Assembly: GCA_965227515.1 (NCBI GenBank)
Contig: CBDDFZ010000001.1
Coordinates: forward strand, 3,200,001 to 3,264,000
Source: Alphaproteobacteria bacterium
Lineage (GTDB): Bacteria > Pseudomonadota > Alphaproteobacteria > CALKHQ01
Length of the DNA stretch: 64,000 bases
Reading direction: 5' to 3'
Within the stretch, counting starts at the first letter, position 1, and each line of letters starts with the position of its first letter. Under the pieces are notes generated by a model that saw only the letters and a list, made by a program, of their open reading frames with translations, ran no database searches and was not told the origin of the DNA. A program made the position numbers and the translations under genes. Positions 32,859-36,616 of this stretch are shown here, one piece after another.

Positions 32859-33012
32859 TTGACGCCCTCGGCCCTGTGCCGAGGGCCCATTCATCACGCG
32901 TTCACTTGGCTTGCGGTCCTGGCTCGCTATCGCCCGCAGGTGCGGCGCGAATCTTGTAACCGATTGGGCATCGGACAAAAATGGGCCCTCGGCACAAGGC
33001 CGAGGGCGTCAA
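32859..33012. repeat. palindromic intergenic repeat family B, copy 2
   Basis: TTGACGCCCTCGGCCCTGTGCCGAGGGCCCAT ... ATGGGCCCTCGGCACAAGGCCGAGGGCGTCAA. Confidence 0.8.
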
Positions 33013-33076
33013 GATGGTGGGTTGATATGCCGATAGAGGCAACATGCGCGCTCTGTTGTATCTCAAGGTCGCTCAA

Positions 33077-33646
33077 ATGCGCCGCCTGATCGTCGGCATC
33101 ACAGGCGCGTCCTGCGCCATCTACGGCATCCGCGCGCTGCAGGTTCTGCAGACCGTGGACGATGTTGAGACCCACCTTGTGCTCTCGCCCTCGGCCCTGC
33201 GCACCATTGTCGACGAAACCGACGTGCCTGCGGCTGATGTCCGCGACATGGCCGACGTGGTGCACGACTACCGCGACATCGGCGCCGGGCCGGCCAGCGG
33301 ATCGTTCCTTGCCCACGGCATGCTGGTCGCCCCCTGCTCCATCAAGACGCTGAGCGGCATCGCCAATTCCTACGACGACAATCTGATCGTGCGCGCCGCC
33401 GACGTGTGCCTGAAGGAACAGCGCCGCCTGGTCCTGATGTTGCGGGAGACCCCGCTGCATGCCGGCCATCTGGAGTTGATGCTGCGCGCGGCGCGCATCG
33501 GTGCGGTCATCGCGCCGCCGATGCCGGCGTTCTACCCCCGGCCGCAGACGCTGGACGACCTGATCGACCACGCGGTCGGTCGCGCGTTGGACCTGTTCGA
33601 CATCGATGCAGGTGTGGTGAAGCGCTGGAAGGACAGCGCGGGATAG
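33077..33646 (+). CDS. ubiX: flavin prenyltransferase UbiX/Pad1
   Basis: GITGAS, SGSF, PCS, RAADV.LKE.R.LVL..RETP, PAFY. Confidence 0.92.
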   Translation: MRRLIVGITGASCAIYGIRALQVLQTVDDVETHLVLSPSALRTIVDETDVPAADVRDMADVVHDYRDIGAGPASGSFLAHGMLVAPCSIKTLSGIANSYDDNLIVRAADVCLKEQRRLVLMLRETPLHAGHLELMLRAARIGAVIAPPMPAFYPRPQTLDDLIDHAVGRALDLFDIDAGVVKRWKDSAG

Positions 33647-33772
33647 CTCGGCGACTGCGTAGATGGGCTAACGGCCCTTGTTTGGTGGCGTGCATGAGTG
33701 GTCGTCCCTCAAGATGTCGGTGTCATACACGGAGTCGGGTTTGCCGCTCCAAGACATCGAGGAGAGACGACC

Positions 33773-34816
33773 ATGAACTACTATGCCGGGATTGACGTTT
33801 CTTTGGAATGGTCATCGGTGTGCGTTGTTGACGGCGCGGGCGGGATTGTCTGCGAGGCTCGTATTGCGAGCACGCCGGCGGGTTTGTTGTTGTGGTTTGG
33901 GTCTTTGGGGATTTCGGTTGAGCGGATTGGTCTTGAGGCGGGGCCGTTGTCGCAATGGCTTGTGCGGGGATGTAGCGAGGGCGGTCTTTCGGTTGAGTTG
34001 CTGGAGACGCGTCATGTTGCGCGAGCGCTTTCGACGATGCCGGTGAAGTCGGACCGCTCGGACGCACGCGGGATTGCTCAGCTGATGCGTGTGGGCTGGT
34101 TTCGGCCGGTTCACTGCAAGTCTTTGGCGGCCCAGGAGATGCGGGCCCTTTTGAAGGGTCGCGACCAGCTCCGCGCGAAGCTGCACGATCTTGAGATGCA
34201 CCTTCGTGGTCAGCTGCGGAACTTCGGGCTGAAGGTAGGGCACACCACCAGGCGCAGCTTTTCGACACGTATTTCGGAGCTTGTGGCGGGGCATCCGGTA
34301 CTGGAGGCGGTGGCGGGGGCGCTGCTGTCGGCACGCGATGGCCTGTTGCTATCGTTCACGGCGCTGGACCGGCAGGTCCGGGCGGCGGCGCAGGCCGACG
34401 ATCGCGCTCGCCTGCTGATGACGGTGCCGGGCGTGGGGAGCATTGTCGGACTGACCTACTTGTCGGGAGTGGACGACCCCGGGCGGTTTGCCTCGTCGCG
34501 CCTGGTGGGTGCGCACTTCGGCCTGACGCCGACCAAGCGCCAGTCGGGCGAGAGCGAGGTGATGGGGCGGATATCGAAGGTAGGGGACGCCGATGTGCGC
34601 TCGGCCCTCTATGAGGCGGCACACGTGGTTCTGACCCGGCCGATCGAGGGCGGCTGGCTGAAGAGCTGGGCGATGAAGCTGGCCAGGCGTGCGGGCATGA
34701 GGAAGGCGAAGGTCGCGCTGGCGCGCCGGCTCGCCGTGATCATGCACCGGATGTGGGTTGACGGCACACCGTTCAACCATGCCGGACCGGTGCGCCCGGC
34801 GATGGCGACAGCATGA
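33773..34816 (+). CDS. IS110 family transposase (bridge recombinase)
   Basis: DEDD RuvC residues: GIDVS, LEAG, KSDRSDA; C-terminal VPGVG...GLTP..RQSG with catalytic Ser; VALARRL. Confidence 0.95.
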   Translation: MNYYAGIDVSLEWSSVCVVDGAGGIVCEARIASTPAGLLLWFGSLGISVERIGLEAGPLSQWLVRGCSEGGLSVELLETRHVARALSTMPVKSDRSDARGIAQLMRVGWFRPVHCKSLAAQEMRALLKGRDQLRAKLHDLEMHLRGQLRNFGLKVGHTTRRSFSTRISELVAGHPVLEAVAGALLSARDGLLLSFTALDRQVRAAAQADDRARLLMTVPGVGSIVGLTYLSGVDDPGRFASSRLVGAHFGLTPTKRQSGESEVMGRISKVGDADVRSALYEAAHVVLTRPIEGGWLKSWAMKLARRAGMRKAKVALARRLAVIMHRMWVDGTPFNHAGPVRPAMATA

Positions 34817-34883
34817 TGGCCGCGGCATAAGGAGAACCGACACACGAGCTTCGACGGGCACCGACACCGGCCCGTCGAGCGCC

Positions 34884-35042
34884 GTCCCGCGCCGGGACGA
34901 TGGATCAGGTCAGGCCGCCATCCGGGATGTCGCCTCGCATGAGAGCACGCTTCCGTAGATTGGACCGACCGATCCTCGCATATCCATCTTGGCGGCGGCC
35001 CTGCGCCGACCCCGTACAGAAGCATGACCCAGGCGCCGGGAC
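34884..35042 (+). ncRNA. putative bridge RNA/seekRNA of the IS110 element
   Basis: Closing stem GTCCCGCGCC/GGCGCCGGGAC; two internal loops carry segments matching the target (CATCCGGG, CGTAG) and the donor junction (CCATCTT, TACAGAAG). Confidence 0.75.
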
Positions 35043-35080
35043 GACGAAAAAGGGATTGACCAACAATGGCCCGTTACAGA

Positions 35081-35135
35081 AGCCTGGGTGAAGCGCAGCG
35101 AAACCCGGGTTCCACTTCGTTCCACCCAGGCTACG
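35081..35135. repeat. GTAG-type REP, interrupted by the IS
   Basis: Removing the IS restores CGTAGCCTGGGTG...CACCCAGGCTACG, a perfect 13-bp inverted repeat. Confidence 0.8.
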
Positions 35136-35231
35136 AGCCTGAGCGAGGCCGCCACCTCCTCACAAAATTACCTTTGTAATTTCGCGAAAGAAAAAAGCTA
35201 TTGTTCCGCGCCATTTTTCGTTAGCCTTGAT

Positions 35232-35356
35232 GCATGGTCATTTCATTCGGCACCAGCCCTCTCCCCCACCCGGCCGCCCAACGACAGTATCCTGCTGGGT
35301 GGCCGGGTGGGGGAGAGGGCTGGCGCAGATTCAGCGCAAGCTGAGCTTGAGCTAGG
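35232..35356. repeat. palindromic intergenic repeat family A, copy 2
   Basis: GCATGGTCATTT..CGGCACCAGCCCTCTCCCCCACCCGGCCG...GGCCGGGTGGGGGAGAGGGCTGGCGCAGA..GCGCAAGCTGA. Confidence 0.8.
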
Positions 35357-35431
35357 CACCAATCGTGCCGATGAGGCCGCCGCGACGGGTGCATCCGCCT
35401 GGCGCCGGTGCCGTGAAACGAGGAGATTGTC

Positions 35432-36616
35432 GTGCGTAAGGGATTCCGGGTCATCGACGTAGACAGCCACGTGACGCCGTCGCTTGAGGTGCTGCACAAA
35501 TACGCCAGCCAGGCACTCAAGGACCGCTGGGACGAGTTCAATCCCTATCTGCGCGAGATGAACTCACCCCCGGGCCGCGGCCACCCGACCGGACCCTGGC
35601 ACACCATCAAGGTCAACCCGATCCCCTACAACCGCATTGCCGGCGAGAAGCCCGGCGTGGAGTTCGCCGAAAAGGGCGGCAAGGGCGCCTTGGAATCGCG
35701 GGTCAAGAATATCTCGAAGTACGAGTGTGCCGAGCGCATCCAGCACGACAATCCCGATGGCCGTGTCGCCGACATGGACACCGAGGGCGTGGACGTGAAC
35801 GTGCTGATCCCGGGCACCTGGGCCTCGGCCTCCACCGCACTCGATCCTGGCCTGTCGTCGCTGCTCTACGGCGCCTATCACGACTACATGGCGGATTTCT
35901 GCAGCGGTCACCCCAACCGTCTGCTGGGCCTGTTCCTGGCGCCCGGCAACAACATCGAATGGGCGGTGGAGAACCTAAAGAAGCGCGGCGAGGAAGGCTG
36001 GGTCTCGTGCGTCTGGCCGTGCCTGCCCGAGGGCATGCCGATCGACGACCCGGACCTGGAGCCGTTGTGGGAGGTGATGAACGACCTGCACCTGCCGATC
36101 ATCCACCACTCGTTCTTCTATGAGCCGCCGTACTTCCCGGGGTATCGCGACATCTGGGGCAACGCCGCCATCGCGCGCACCGCCGCCCACCCCTGGGGCG
36201 CGCAGCGCCTGCTCGCCTACGTGATTGCCGGCGGCATCCTGGACCGGCACCCCAACATCAAGGTGGGCTTCGCGGAAACCGGACACGGCTGGCTGCCCTA
36301 CTGGGTGAAGCGTCTCGACAGCCAGGTGACCTATGTCGCCGGCACCGTGCGCCCGCTGAAGTACCTGCCCAGCGAATACGTCAAGATGGGCCGGGTGTTC
36401 TGCTGCATCGAAAGCCACGAGGGCCCGGAGATGACCAAGGCGGTGATCGACGTGCTGGGCGACGGCTGCCTGATGTATGCCTCCGACTTCCCACACCCGG
36501 AGTGCGACTGGCCGCATTCGGTCGACAACGTGATCGCGTGGGAGAACCACCTGGGCAACGAGCCGCTGCGCAAGCTGTTGGGCGCCAACGCCGACAATTA
36601 TCTGCGCGTCGCCTGA
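35432..36616 (+). CDS. amidohydrolase_2 family metal-dependent hydrolase/decarboxylase
   Basis: IDVDSH, IIHH, AETGHGW, YASDFPH. Confidence 0.88.
   Translation: MRKGFRVIDVDSHVTPSLEVLHKYASQALKDRWDEFNPYLREMNSPPGRGHPTGPWHTIKVNPIPYNRIAGEKPGVEFAEKGGKGALESRVKNISKYECAERIQHDNPDGRVADMDTEGVDVNVLIPGTWASASTALDPGLSSLLYGAYHDYMADFCSGHPNRLLGLFLAPGNNIEWAVENLKKRGEEGWVSCVWPCLPEGMPIDDPDLEPLWEVMNDLHLPIIHHSFFYEPPYFPGYRDIWGNAAIARTAAHPWGAQRLLAYVIAGGILDRHPNIKVGFAETGHGWLPYWVKRLDSQVTYVAGTVRPLKYLPSEYVKMGRVFCCIESHEGPEMTKAVIDVLGDGCLMYASDFPHPECDWPHSVDNVIAWENHLGNEPLRKLLGANADNYLRVA

What the first reader, a model, noticed from the sequence alone, without database searches (positions are those of the whole stretch)
33658..35135. 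IS110/IS1111 element in a REP, with all four bridge-RNA guides readable
Seen: the element lies between two AG dinucleotides (33661-62 and 35081-82). Excision restores a perfect GTAG-type REP (CGTAGCCTGGGTG...CACCCAGGCTACG) and gives the circle junction CCGTTACAGA-AG-ATGGGCTAACGG. The 3' non-coding end can fold into two internal loops. Loop 1 holds CATCCGGG (34919-26), which pairs with the right target CCTGGGTG using two wobble pairs and would pair perfectly with a CCCGGATG variant, and CGTAG (34954-58), which equals left target plus core. Loop 2 holds CCATCTT (34984-90), the reverse complement of junction AAGATGG, and TACAGAAG (35015-22), which equals left donor plus core. Established: IS110 recombinases use a bispecific bridge/seek RNA, encoded at the right end in IS1111-type elements. 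Inference: this is an intact, programmable recombinase with an AG core that targets CGTAGCCYGGRTG REPs.
Basis: partly seen in the sequence, partly recalled or inferred. Interest (0 to 1): 0.85.

Follow-up and report, generated by a model that had tools for sequence, protein, structure and literature searches.

The report
REP-targeting IS1111 element with bridge RNA
This is an intact insertion sequence of the IS110/IS1111 family whose own small RNA reads both its landing site (a common genomic repeat) and its own ends; the reading is right, but this kind of element has been described since 2024.

Summary
Window 33663-35082 is a 1420-bp IS110-family element of the IS1111 group: a 347-aa DEDD/Ser recombinase, subterminal inverted repeats and a 266-nt 3' non-coding region. 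It sits between two AG cores in the head of a GTAG-type REP doublet.

- **Copies:** the genome holds 20 full copies, all with open recombinase frames, plus 1 deleted copy. All 21 lie at NGTAG|IS|CCYGGRTG.
- **Empty site:** a contig from another sequencing run bridges this locus, skipping exactly 1420 bp.
- **Guides:** In 12 further sequences of a 13-row alignment, from relatives with different targets, the same alignment columns match each element's own target and ends. A covariance model recovered the RNA in further loci, and 5 of 6 testable held-out loci match their own right flank.
- **Guide alleles:** two alleles coexist here. CATCCGGG copies sit at CCC-type sites in 11 of 13 cases; CATCCAGG copies sit at CCT-type sites in 7 of 7 (Fisher p = 0.0005).
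- **Correction:** the donor guides lie in a three-way junction, not a simple internal loop. The C of "CGTAG" is not discriminating.

RNA expression, circles and activity were not shown. Verdict: a well-supported new member of a known kind, of modest interest.

The parts
33658..33662 (+). Left target plus core (CGT + AG). This is the head of the REP; the AG at 33661-62 is one of the two core copies.
   Evidence: NGTAG precedes all 21 copies.
33663..35082 (+). The insertion sequence, 1420 bp counted with one AG core copy.
   Evidence: 20 full copies plus 1 deleted copy share these ends; a contig of run X10 skips exactly 1420 bp here.
33663..33668 (+). Left terminal extension ATGGGC, which is the right donor (RD) in the circle junction.
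   Evidence: the homologues begin ATGGGG/ATGGCG/ATGCCG directly after AG.
33669..33686 (+). Left subterminal inverted repeat.
   Evidence: I7: 18 nt, 78% complementary to 35059-35076; the relatives have a 10-nt perfect GTAACGGGCC.
33773..34816 (+). Recombinase gene, 347 aa, starting MNYYAG. Residues D8, E55, D94 and D97 and the motif GLTPTKRQSG (250-259, with S258) are present.
   Evidence: Homologues align from residue 1.
34884..35042 (+). Bridge/seek RNA core (159 nt) enclosed by basal helix P1 (34884-34896 with 35029-35042).
   Evidence: Model R1 hits the window once, at 34877-35051 on the + strand, with 139.6 bits.
34902..34975 (+). Target-binding arm. Helix P2 is 34902-34914 with 34965-34975. 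Helix P3 is the hairpin 34929-34948. The internal loop between them carries the two target guides.
   Evidence: P2 has 6 of 10 pairs with compensatory changes, P3 has 3 of 4. The window coordinates of P2 and P3 are my own mapping from the alignment columns.
34919..34926 (+). [quoted passage not shown] The sister allele reads CAUCCAGG.
34954..34958 (+). Left target guide (C)GUAG, identical to the left target plus core, which pairs with the bottom strand.
   Evidence: The homologous columns read CACTTAG, CCGATAG, GTGAG and CAGAG, matching those elements' own left flanks.
34984..34990 (+). Right donor guide CCAUCUU, complementary to A-AG-ATGG of the circle junction.
   Evidence: L041 has GGCAT against its own end ATGCC; L036 has CATGC against its end CATGAG.
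34991..35013 (+). Helix P4, the hairpin between the two donor guides.
   Evidence: 4 of 7 pairs have compensatory changes and 95.6% of cells are paired.
35015..35022 (+). Left donor guide UACAGAAG, identical to the left donor plus core.
   Evidence: a 7-8 nt match in 13 of 13 rows, co-varying as CAGAAG, GAGAAG and GCGAAG with the element's own right end.
35056..35061 (+). TTGACC, a -35-like box. After circularisation it would face GAAGAT across the junction at a 17-nt spacing. The hybrid promoter is inferred.
   Evidence: TTGAC lies 21-22 nt from the right end in 14 of 15 elements. No sigma-70 consensus promoter was found in the linear element.
35059..35076 (+). Right subterminal inverted repeat.
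   Evidence: I7.
35083..35135 (+). The rest of the REP doublet. The right target CCTGGGTG is at 35083-35090. A second, unoccupied inverted REP head ends at 35135.
   Evidence: I1; 114 uninterrupted NGTAG+CCYGGRTG sites in the genome.

Best explanation
Window 33663-35082 is a complete, probably active insertion sequence of the IS110 family, IS1111 group.

**Parts**
- It encodes a DEDD/Ser recombinase at 33773-34816.
- Downstream, it encodes a bridge (seek) RNA of about 160 nt at 34884-35042.

**RNA architecture**
- Basal helix P1 closes a three-way junction.
- One branch (P2, internal loop, P3) is the target-binding loop.
[quoted passage not shown] - The donor guides flank hairpin P4 inside the junction.
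[quoted passage not shown] **Inferred mechanism**
- The element excises as a circle whose junction is right end, AG, left end.
- The RNA-recombinase complex then recombines that junction with an AG in the head of a GTAG-type REP.
- No duplication is left beyond the shared AG.

**Shown here:** anatomy, copy number, insertion-site rule, empty site, helix covariation, and guide covariation with targets and ends.

**Inferred from the published family mechanism (IS621, ISEc11, ISPa11):** transcription of the RNA, circle formation, the junction promoter and catalysis.
For: **Protein**
- Both family domains are found: PF02371 at 2.3e-20 and PF01548 at 9.5e-13.
- The C-terminal domain matches the ISCro4 and IS621 transposase structures at E 1e-11 and 7e-11.
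- The D, E, D, D residues and the SG motif are present.

**Copies**
- There are 20 full copies at 89.8-100% identity, all with open frames of 345-347 aa.
- All 21 copies lie at NGTAG|CCYGGRTG.

**Empty site**
- An X10 contig skips 1420 bp at this locus with a 2-nt ambiguity.

**RNA structure**
- RNAalifold on 13 sequences gives P1, P2 and P4, with 17 of 30 pairs compensatory.
- With P3 added, 88.4% of cells pair, against 74.5% in shuffles (0 of 500 reach it) and 37-46% in slid controls. Twenty pairs show double changes.

**Guides**
- Right target guide (RTG) columns: cognate matches are 9, 8, 8, 9, 11, 9, 12, 11 and 10 nt in nine relatives. The 132 non-cognate pairs average 3.77 nt with a maximum of 6.
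- Left donor guide (LDG): 7-8 nt in 13 of 13 rows.
- Left target guide (LTG): mean 4.69 nt against 3.06 nt non-cognate.

**Held-out loci**
- Model R1 gave 25 hits over the window and 29 loci.
- In loci not used to build it, the RTG matches the element's own right flank in L042 (9 nt), L044 (10), L045 (10), L047 (7) and L036 (7).

**Within-genome alleles**
- Guide G or A against target C or T gives the table [[11,2],[0,7]], Fisher p = 4.6e-4.
- Nine of 13 G-allele copies sit at the perfectly matching CCCGGATG, which makes up only 27 of 135 sites (p = 1.7e-4).

**Order of guides**
- The top-strand match lies 5' of the bottom-strand match, as published for IS1111 seekRNAs.
- A multiloop position for the donor guides is noted for IS1111 orthologues.
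Against: **Not measured**
- No RNA, circle or transposition was observed. Transcription start, RNA ends and processing are unknown.
- No sigma-70-type promoter was found in the linear element.

**Single-sequence folding**
- Folding energy is not distinguishable from shuffles (z = -1.58 and -1.74). The minimum-free-energy structure pairs part of the target loop internally.

**This copy's own pairing**
- This copy sits at CCTGGGTG, so its own guide needs two wobble pairs.
- The guide carries only one of the two core-complementary bases (AU where CU would pair).

**Exceptions among relatives**
- L025 (RTG 5 nt, LTG 2 nt), L032 (RTG 4 nt) and L048 (3 nt) do not match their present flanks.
- The LTG match is short: in L031 and L038 it is only 3 nt, no more than the AAG ending in the core.

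**Limits of the covariation evidence**
- Donor-guide covariation rests on few independent end variants: three LDG types, and two or three right-donor-guide (RDG) types.
- The 13 aligned sequences are related, so the shuffle control overstates significance.
Confidence: 0.88

Rival explanations
1. Only the target-binding arm is a functional guide, as a short seekRNA of about 80-100 nt like those co-purified with ISEc11, ISPa11 and ISKpn4 transposases. The 'donor guides' would then be incidental similarity to the element's own ends, with the ends recognised by the protein through the subterminal repeats.
For: - Siddiquee et al. report that the predominant RNAs are 82-96 nt and describe only target matches in them.
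- Ends are highly conserved in this clade, so donor covariation has few independent events (the non-cognate sample is only 8 and 14 pairs).
- RDG matches are short, 4-8 nt.
Against: - The LDG tracks the element's own right end in 13 of 13 rows through three variants: CAGAAG, GAGAAG and GCGAAG.
- The RDG follows the odd left ends of L041 (GGCAT against ATGCC) and L036 (CATGC against CATGAG).
- P4 and P1, which frame these guides, carry compensatory changes.
- Durrant et al. predict donor-binding nucleotides in IS1111 bridge RNAs.
Confidence: 0.08
2. Site choice is made by the protein reading the REP hairpin. The REP-like words in the non-coding region would be captured REP fragments, or chance in GC-rich DNA.
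For: - The targets are structured repeats.
- A preprint on ISPpu10 reports that a target stem-loop adds specificity beyond pairing.
- CATCCGGGATG is itself REP-like and nearly palindromic.
Against: - Relatives that land in non-REP sequences carry, in the same columns, words complementary to their own flanks.
- A single G/A change in the guide tracks C/T in the target inside one genome, where the recombinases differ by only 5-30 residues.
- The ISPpu10 preprint itself finds base pairing indispensable.
Confidence: 0.03
3. The copies are fossils: the element is no longer mobile.
For:
- One copy is internally deleted.
Against: - Five copies are 99.8-100% identical over 1420 bp.
- All 20 full copies keep open frames.
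- This very insertion is absent from a contig of another run.
- 114 free target sites remain.
Confidence: 0.03

Closest known systems
ISPa11 and other IS1111-group elements with a 3' seekRNA (Siddiquee et al. 2024, Nat Commun, PMC11187229; abstract and sections 6, 9 and 13 read, plus passages)
   Same: - The long non-coding region lies downstream of tnp.
- Subterminal inverted repeats are present.
- The transposase is about 330-350 aa and carries GLxPxxxxS/TG.
- The RNA carries a top-strand match 5' of a bottom-strand match.
- ISPa11 also targets REPs.
   Different: - This is a different host lineage. Relatives found here are alphaproteobacterial, with at most 69% identity to any recombinase found.
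- The terminal extensions are 6 nt on the left and 4 nt on the right, plus the AG, rather than the 7 and 3 quoted for the group.
- I could not compare sequences with ISPa11 itself.
IS621 bridge RNA system (Durrant et al. 2024, Nature, PMC11208160, passages read; PDB 8wt6)
   Same: - A bispecific RNA carries a target-binding and a donor-binding module.
- Left guides pair with the bottom strand and right guides with the top strand.
- A 2-nt core is shared by target and donor.
- The recombinase is DEDD plus Ser.
   Different: [quoted passage not shown]
- Here the RNA is in the right end, the order is reversed, and the core is AG.
- Here the donor guides lie in a multiloop.
- Here the right guides carry the core complement only variably.
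ISPpu9 and ISPpu10 of Pseudomonas putida (Pares-Guillen et al. 2025, NAR, PMC12288879, passages read; Na et al. 2026 bioRxiv 10.64898/2026.03.19.712850, outline, section 7 and passages read)
   Same: - Both are IS110-family elements that insert at a fixed position in REPs, often in REP pairs.
- ISPpu9 recombines at an AG.
- Wobble pairs are tolerated at guide-target interfaces.
   Different: - In those elements the bridge RNA is transcribed upstream of tnp, and ISPpu10 has a CT core.
- The stem-loop reported for ISPpu10 lies 5' of the target. Here the REP hairpin arm is itself the right target.

Membership tests
IS110 family (DEDD recombinase insertion sequences) | Recombinase with an N-terminal DEDD (RuvC-like) domain and the C-terminal PF02371 domain carrying the conserved Ser | tested here: met
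   - PF01548 at 48.6 bits and PF02371 at 73.2 bits, both above their cut-offs.
- D8, E55, D94, D97 and S258 line up with GIDVS, EA, D..D and SG of ISCro4. The N-terminal alignment is weak (4.5 bits).
IS110 family (DEDD recombinase insertion sequences) | Site-specific insertion with no duplication beyond a shared 2-nt core | tested here: met
   - AG is present on both sides of all 21 copies.
- the empty site skips 1420 bp with a 2-nt ambiguity.
IS110 family (DEDD recombinase insertion sequences) | Circular intermediate with a junction promoter | not testable with these tools
   Only a conserved TTGAC 21-22 nt from the right end in 14 of 15 elements. All runs laid were contigs.
IS1111 group | Subterminal inverted repeats | tested here: met
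   -, I7: 33669-33686 against 35059-35076, 18 nt, 78% complementary.
- relatives have a 10-nt perfect repeat.
IS1111 group | Long non-coding region downstream of tnp | tested here: met
   110 nt upstream of the start codon against 266 nt downstream of the stop codon.
IS1111 group | Terminal extensions of 7 (or 6) nt on the left and 3 nt on the right, as quoted by Siddiquee et al. | tested here: inconclusive
   Here there are 6 nt on the left and 4 nt on the right, plus the AG. The result depends on how the shared AG and the first repeat base are assigned.
IS1111 group | RNA with the top-strand match 5' of the bottom-strand match | tested here: met
   The RTG (34919-26) precedes the LTG (34954-58), and the RDG (34984-90) precedes the LDG (35015-22). 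The order is the same in all aligned relatives.
Bridge / seek RNA | Guides co-vary with the target and with the element's ends across relatives | tested here: met
   The exceptions are L025, L032 and L048.
Bridge / seek RNA | Conserved secondary structure supported by compensatory changes | tested here: met
   20 of 34 pairs have double changes, and the slid controls give 4-7.
Bridge / seek RNA | The RNA is transcribed and binds the recombinase | not testable with these tools
   No RNA run was listed as a holder. No binding test was run.
REP (GTAG-type repetitive extragenic palindrome) as the target | A short palindromic repeat with a GTAG head, present in many intergenic copies, with a RAYT-type Y1 transposase in the genome | tested here: met
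   - 114 free sites plus the occupied ones.
-, I1: the palindrome.
- two PF01797 matches above the cut-off. Whether these are RAYTs was not examined.

The most novel reading that the evidence does not exclude
Two guide alleles of one element coexist in a single genome and divide the REP variants between them.

- The CAUCCGGG allele prefers the perfectly matched CCCGGATG. Through rG-dT and rU-dG wobble it also reaches CCCGGGTG and CCTGGGTG.
- The CAUCCAGG allele is confined to CCT-type sites, in 7 of 7 copies, although these are about a third of all sites.

This would be a natural one-nucleotide retargeting with an asymmetric specificity rule: wobble is tolerated and A-C is not. It would be readable from a single genome.

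A second possibility concerns the whole clade. The left guides always include the core (13 of 13 rows) while the right guides include it only variably. That would suggest top-strand core pairing is dispensable in this IS1111 clade.
Probability: 0.7. Interest if true: 0.4.

Novelty: new member of a known kind. Interest (0 to 1): 0.3.

Why it matters
The finding adds a cleanly delimited, multi-copy, apparently live IS1111-type bridge-recombinase system from an alphaproteobacterial lineage.

- All four guides, the helices, the core and the target rule are defined.
- Two natural guide alleles and 114 free sites sit in the same cell. That makes it a convenient natural system for asking how pairing, wobble and target hairpins set specificity in the less-studied IS1111 branch.

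It does not change the picture of how these elements work. REP targeting, 3'-encoded guide RNAs, multiloop donor guides and wobble tolerance are all in print.

Tried and rejected
**Searches that found nothing useful**
- Rfam with the E-value threshold over 33000-36000 found no bridge-RNA family. The only hits were sub-threshold miRNA and snoRNA models on the neighbouring hairpin at 35245-35331.
- Single-sequence folding of 34817-35082 and 34884-35042 gave z = -1.58 and -1.74 and did not leave the target guides unpaired. I did not rely on it.
- The look-up of sequencing runs listed no RNA holder, so expression could not be examined.
- Read laying used contigs only. No circle joint could be expected or was seen, and parts without cover are not interpreted.
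- Megablast of the element against plasmids gave no match.
- The bridge-RNA region was searched in the family's held genomes. Only 3 other genomes were available and none matched. The same search found 21 matches in the own genome, so there are no orphan copies of the RNA.
- The sigma-70 scan found no promoter in the linear element.

**Analyses replaced or set aside**
- A longest-match test over the whole non-coding region was confounded by ACCCAGGC at 35027-34, so I replaced it with the column-restricted test.
- The C of CGTAG as a guide position is rejected: occupancy does not differ from that of free sites.
- Reciprocal presence of the core complement in the RTG and the RDG was considered as a rule and rejected. 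L035 has both, and L024 and L026 have half of each (windows).

**Tools and files not available**
- Supplementary files were not opened. Durrant's Supplementary Table 5 and Extended Data Fig. 10, and Siddiquee's Supplementary Figs 6-8, may already show IS1111 structures like this one.
- ISfinder could not be queried, so I cannot say whether this element has a name.
Full report
**What is in the sequence.**
- CGTAG lies at 33658-62, and a second AG at 35081-82.
- Between them is a 1420-bp segment (33663-35082, counted with one AG).
- After it comes CCTGGGTG...CACCCAGGCTACG. With the CGTAG on the left, this forms a palindrome with 13-nt perfect outer arms.
- (I1) shows that the palindrome is two inverted, overlapping REP units, a doublet. 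The second GTAG head, on the minus strand and ending at 35135, is unoccupied.
- The segment carries one long frame. From the ATG at 33773, where the homologues also start, it gives 347 aa.
- Pfam finds DEDD_Tnp_IS110 and Transposase_20.
- The C-terminal domain matches the solved ISCro4 and IS621 transposases.
- D8, E55, D94 and D97 and the motif GLTPTKRQSG with S258 are present.
- Subterminal inverted repeats lie at 33669-86 and 35059-76 (I7).
- 110 nt precede the gene and 266 nt follow it.

**Boundaries and copies.**
- The genome (two contigs, 5.5 Mb) has 20 full copies at 89.8-100% identity and one 825-bp internally deleted copy.
- Every copy ends at the same bases, and all 21 are flanked by NGTAG on the left and CCYGGRTG on the right.
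- All 20 full copies keep an open frame of 345-347 aa.
- In contigs of another public run (X10), one 238-nt contig covers 33477-33660 and continues at 35081-35134. It skips exactly 1420 bp with a 2-nt ambiguity. This is the empty site, and it shows that the AG is shared rather than duplicated from a longer target.
- The genome holds 114 uninterrupted NGTAG+CCYGGRTG sites: CCCGGGTG 60, CCTGGGTG 33, CCCGGATG 18 and CCTGGATG 3.
- It also holds 68 AG+CCYGGRTG places without GT, a count that includes the deleted copy's own right junction. None of the 20 counted insertions uses such a place (P = 2.7e-4).
- The base before GTAG is not selected (Fisher p = 0.79).

**Relatives.** One scan of representative genomes returned 29 loci encoding relatives at 43-69% identity. 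Nearly all are alphaproteobacterial records.
- For 14 of them I could define both ends from the subterminal repeats.
- All have an AG core.
- Left ends read ATGGGG, ATGGCG, ATGCCG, ATTGGC or CTGGGG followed by TAAYSG.
- Right ends read ...TTA(C/G)(A/C)GAAG.
- Their flanks differ widely. Examples are GGCGGATT, CCCGCATG, ACTCGAA, CGGACATG, AAGGTTTG and CACTAC.

**The RNA structure.** I aligned 13 non-coding regions.
- RNAalifold predicts three helices, with 17 of 30 pairs showing double changes.
  - P1 is a basal helix at 34884-96 with 35029-42.
  - P2 is at 34902-14 with 34965-75.
  - P4 is a hairpin at 34991-35013.
- Adding the base of the inner hairpin P3 (34929-48) gives 34 pairs.
  - 88.4% of cells pair, against 74.5% in column shuffles (0 of 500 reach it) and 37-46% when partners are slid.
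  - 20 pairs show double changes, against 4-7 in the slid controls.
- The sequences are related, so the shuffle figure is not a probability. The slid control is the fairer one.
- The architecture is a three-way junction.
  - The P2, internal loop, P3 branch carries the target guides.
  - The donor guides flank P4 in the junction strands.
- Durrant et al. remark that many IS1111 orthologues place the donor-binding nucleotides in a multiloop.
- The single-sequence minimum-free-energy fold reproduces P1 and P2 but closes part of the target loop, and it is no more stable than shuffles.

**The guides.** I used windows restricted to the aligned columns and compared the longest exact match with each element's own flank.

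| Guide | Cognate match (nt) | Non-cognate comparison |
|---|---|---|
| Right target guide (RTG) | 9 (L024), 8 (L026), 8 (L041), 9 (L028), 11 (L030), 9 (L031), 12 (L033), 11 (L038), 10 (L035) | 132 pairs, mean 3.77, maximum 6 |
| Left donor guide (LDG) | 7-8 in 13 of 13 rows | follows the own end: CAGAAG, GAGAAG or GCGAAG |
| Left target guide (LTG) | mean 4.69 | mean 3.06 |

- The window copy and its sister allele score low in the RTG test (3 and 5 nt) only because exact matching ignores their wobble pairs.
- L025 (5 nt) and L032 (4 nt) do not match their flanks.
- The LTG always ends in AG just before the invariant AGAT. It reads CACTTAG, CCGATAG, GTGAG, CAGAG and CCGTAG where the left flanks read the same. 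It fits poorly in L025, L031 and L038.
- The right donor guide (RDG) follows the unusual left ends of L041 (GGCAT against ATGCC) and L036 (CATGC against CATGAG).

**Held-out test.**
- A covariance model built from the alignment gave 25 matches over the window and the 29 loci.
- All matches lie on the recombinase strand and downstream of the gene. There is one in the 64-kb window, at 34877-35051.
- Thirteen of the hits are in loci not used to build the model. Three of these (L027, L037, L040) score the same as a training locus.
- Among six more divergent held-out loci whose right end is present, the RTG matches the element's own flank in L042 (9), L044 (10), L045 (10), L047 (7) and L036 (7). 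It does not in L048.

**A natural retargeting inside this genome.** The 20 full copies fall into two guide alleles.
- Thirteen copies read CATCCGGG. Their sites are CCCGGATG in 9, CCCGGGTG in 2 and CCTGGGTG in 2.
- Seven copies (89.8-97.6% identical to the window copy) read CATCCAGG. Their sites are CCTGGGTG in 6 and CCTGGATG in 1.
- Guide G or A against target C or T gives Fisher p = 4.6e-4.
- The G allele is enriched at its perfect match, which makes up only 27 of 135 sites (p = 1.7e-4).
- The A allele is confined to CCT-type sites (p = 5.3e-4).
- The left flanks all differ, so these are separate insertions.
- The window copy is one of the two G-allele copies at CCTGGGTG.
- Wobble tolerance at these interfaces has been reported for ISPpu10 and IS621.

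**How it most likely works.** By analogy with IS621, ISEc11 and ISPa11, the steps would be as follows.
1. The element excises as a circle.
2. The joint right end, AG, left end is held by the donor guides.
3. A REP head is held by the target guides.
4. The recombinase exchanges strands at the AG.

A TTGAC box sits 21-22 nt from the right end in 14 of 15 elements, and it would face GAAGAT across the joint. This suggests the junction promoter known for the family. None of these steps was observed here.

**Comparison and novelty.** Every defining feature I could test for the IS110 family, the IS1111 group and a bridge/seek RNA is met. The exception is the quoted 7 and 3 nt terminal extensions, which here are 6 and 4 nt plus the AG. 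The following are all published:
- REP targeting by this family;
- 3'-encoded guide RNAs with the reversed guide order;
- natural reprogramming;
- wobble tolerance.

I searched the held literature for seekRNA with IS1111, for bridge RNA with IS110 and target-binding loop, and for bridge RNA with wobble and IS110. I saw no description of this particular element. I could not query ISfinder or the papers' supplements.

**Verdict.** This is a new member of a known kind, with a neat within-genome pair of guide alleles. Interest is modest.

Noticed in passing
window 35231-35356 (hairpin 35245-35331): A second repeat family lies next to the IS. It is a palindromic unit of about 113-126 nt. It gives 82 blastn HSPs of 100 nt or more in this genome and only sub-threshold miRNA-model hits in Rfam. 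A contig of run X10 lacks it (skip 35230 to 35357), so it is polymorphic and possibly a MITE- or REPIN-like mobile unit.
   Followed up: partly
G000 C1:2017088-2017375 and C1:1603908-1604246: Two Y1_Tnp (PF01797) matches score above the cut-off. They are candidate RAYT genes for the GTAG-type REPs that this IS uses as landing sites.
   Followed up: no
G000 C1:998357-999181 (locus L021/L022): An 825-bp internally deleted copy at a normal CGTAG|CCTGGGTG site. It keeps both ends and the donor-guide part, but lacks the 3' half of the gene and the right target guide.
   Followed up: partly
L025, L032, L048: The target guides of three relatives do not match their present flanks. L032 sits in the same CGGACAT site type as its sisters but has a different right target guide. 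This could reflect off-target insertion or guide change after insertion.
   Followed up: no
alignment A1 columns 42-60 and 120-138: Both left guides end in AG in all 13 sequences. The right guides carry the core complement CU only variably. The RTG has it in L041, L028, L030-L038 and L035. The RDG has it in the window copy and L035. Elsewhere it is half present or absent.
   Followed up: partly
window 35027-35034: ACCCAGGC, in the 3' strand of P1, is complementary to the core G plus CCTGGGT of this copy's right target (I25). The homologous positions are conserved as part of P1 in relatives with other targets, so this is probably chance.
   Followed up: partly
window 34849-34879: A strong hairpin (CGACGGGC...GCCCGTCG) lies directly after the recombinase stop codon and upstream of P1. 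It has no T tract and is not conserved in sequence in the relatives.
   Followed up: no
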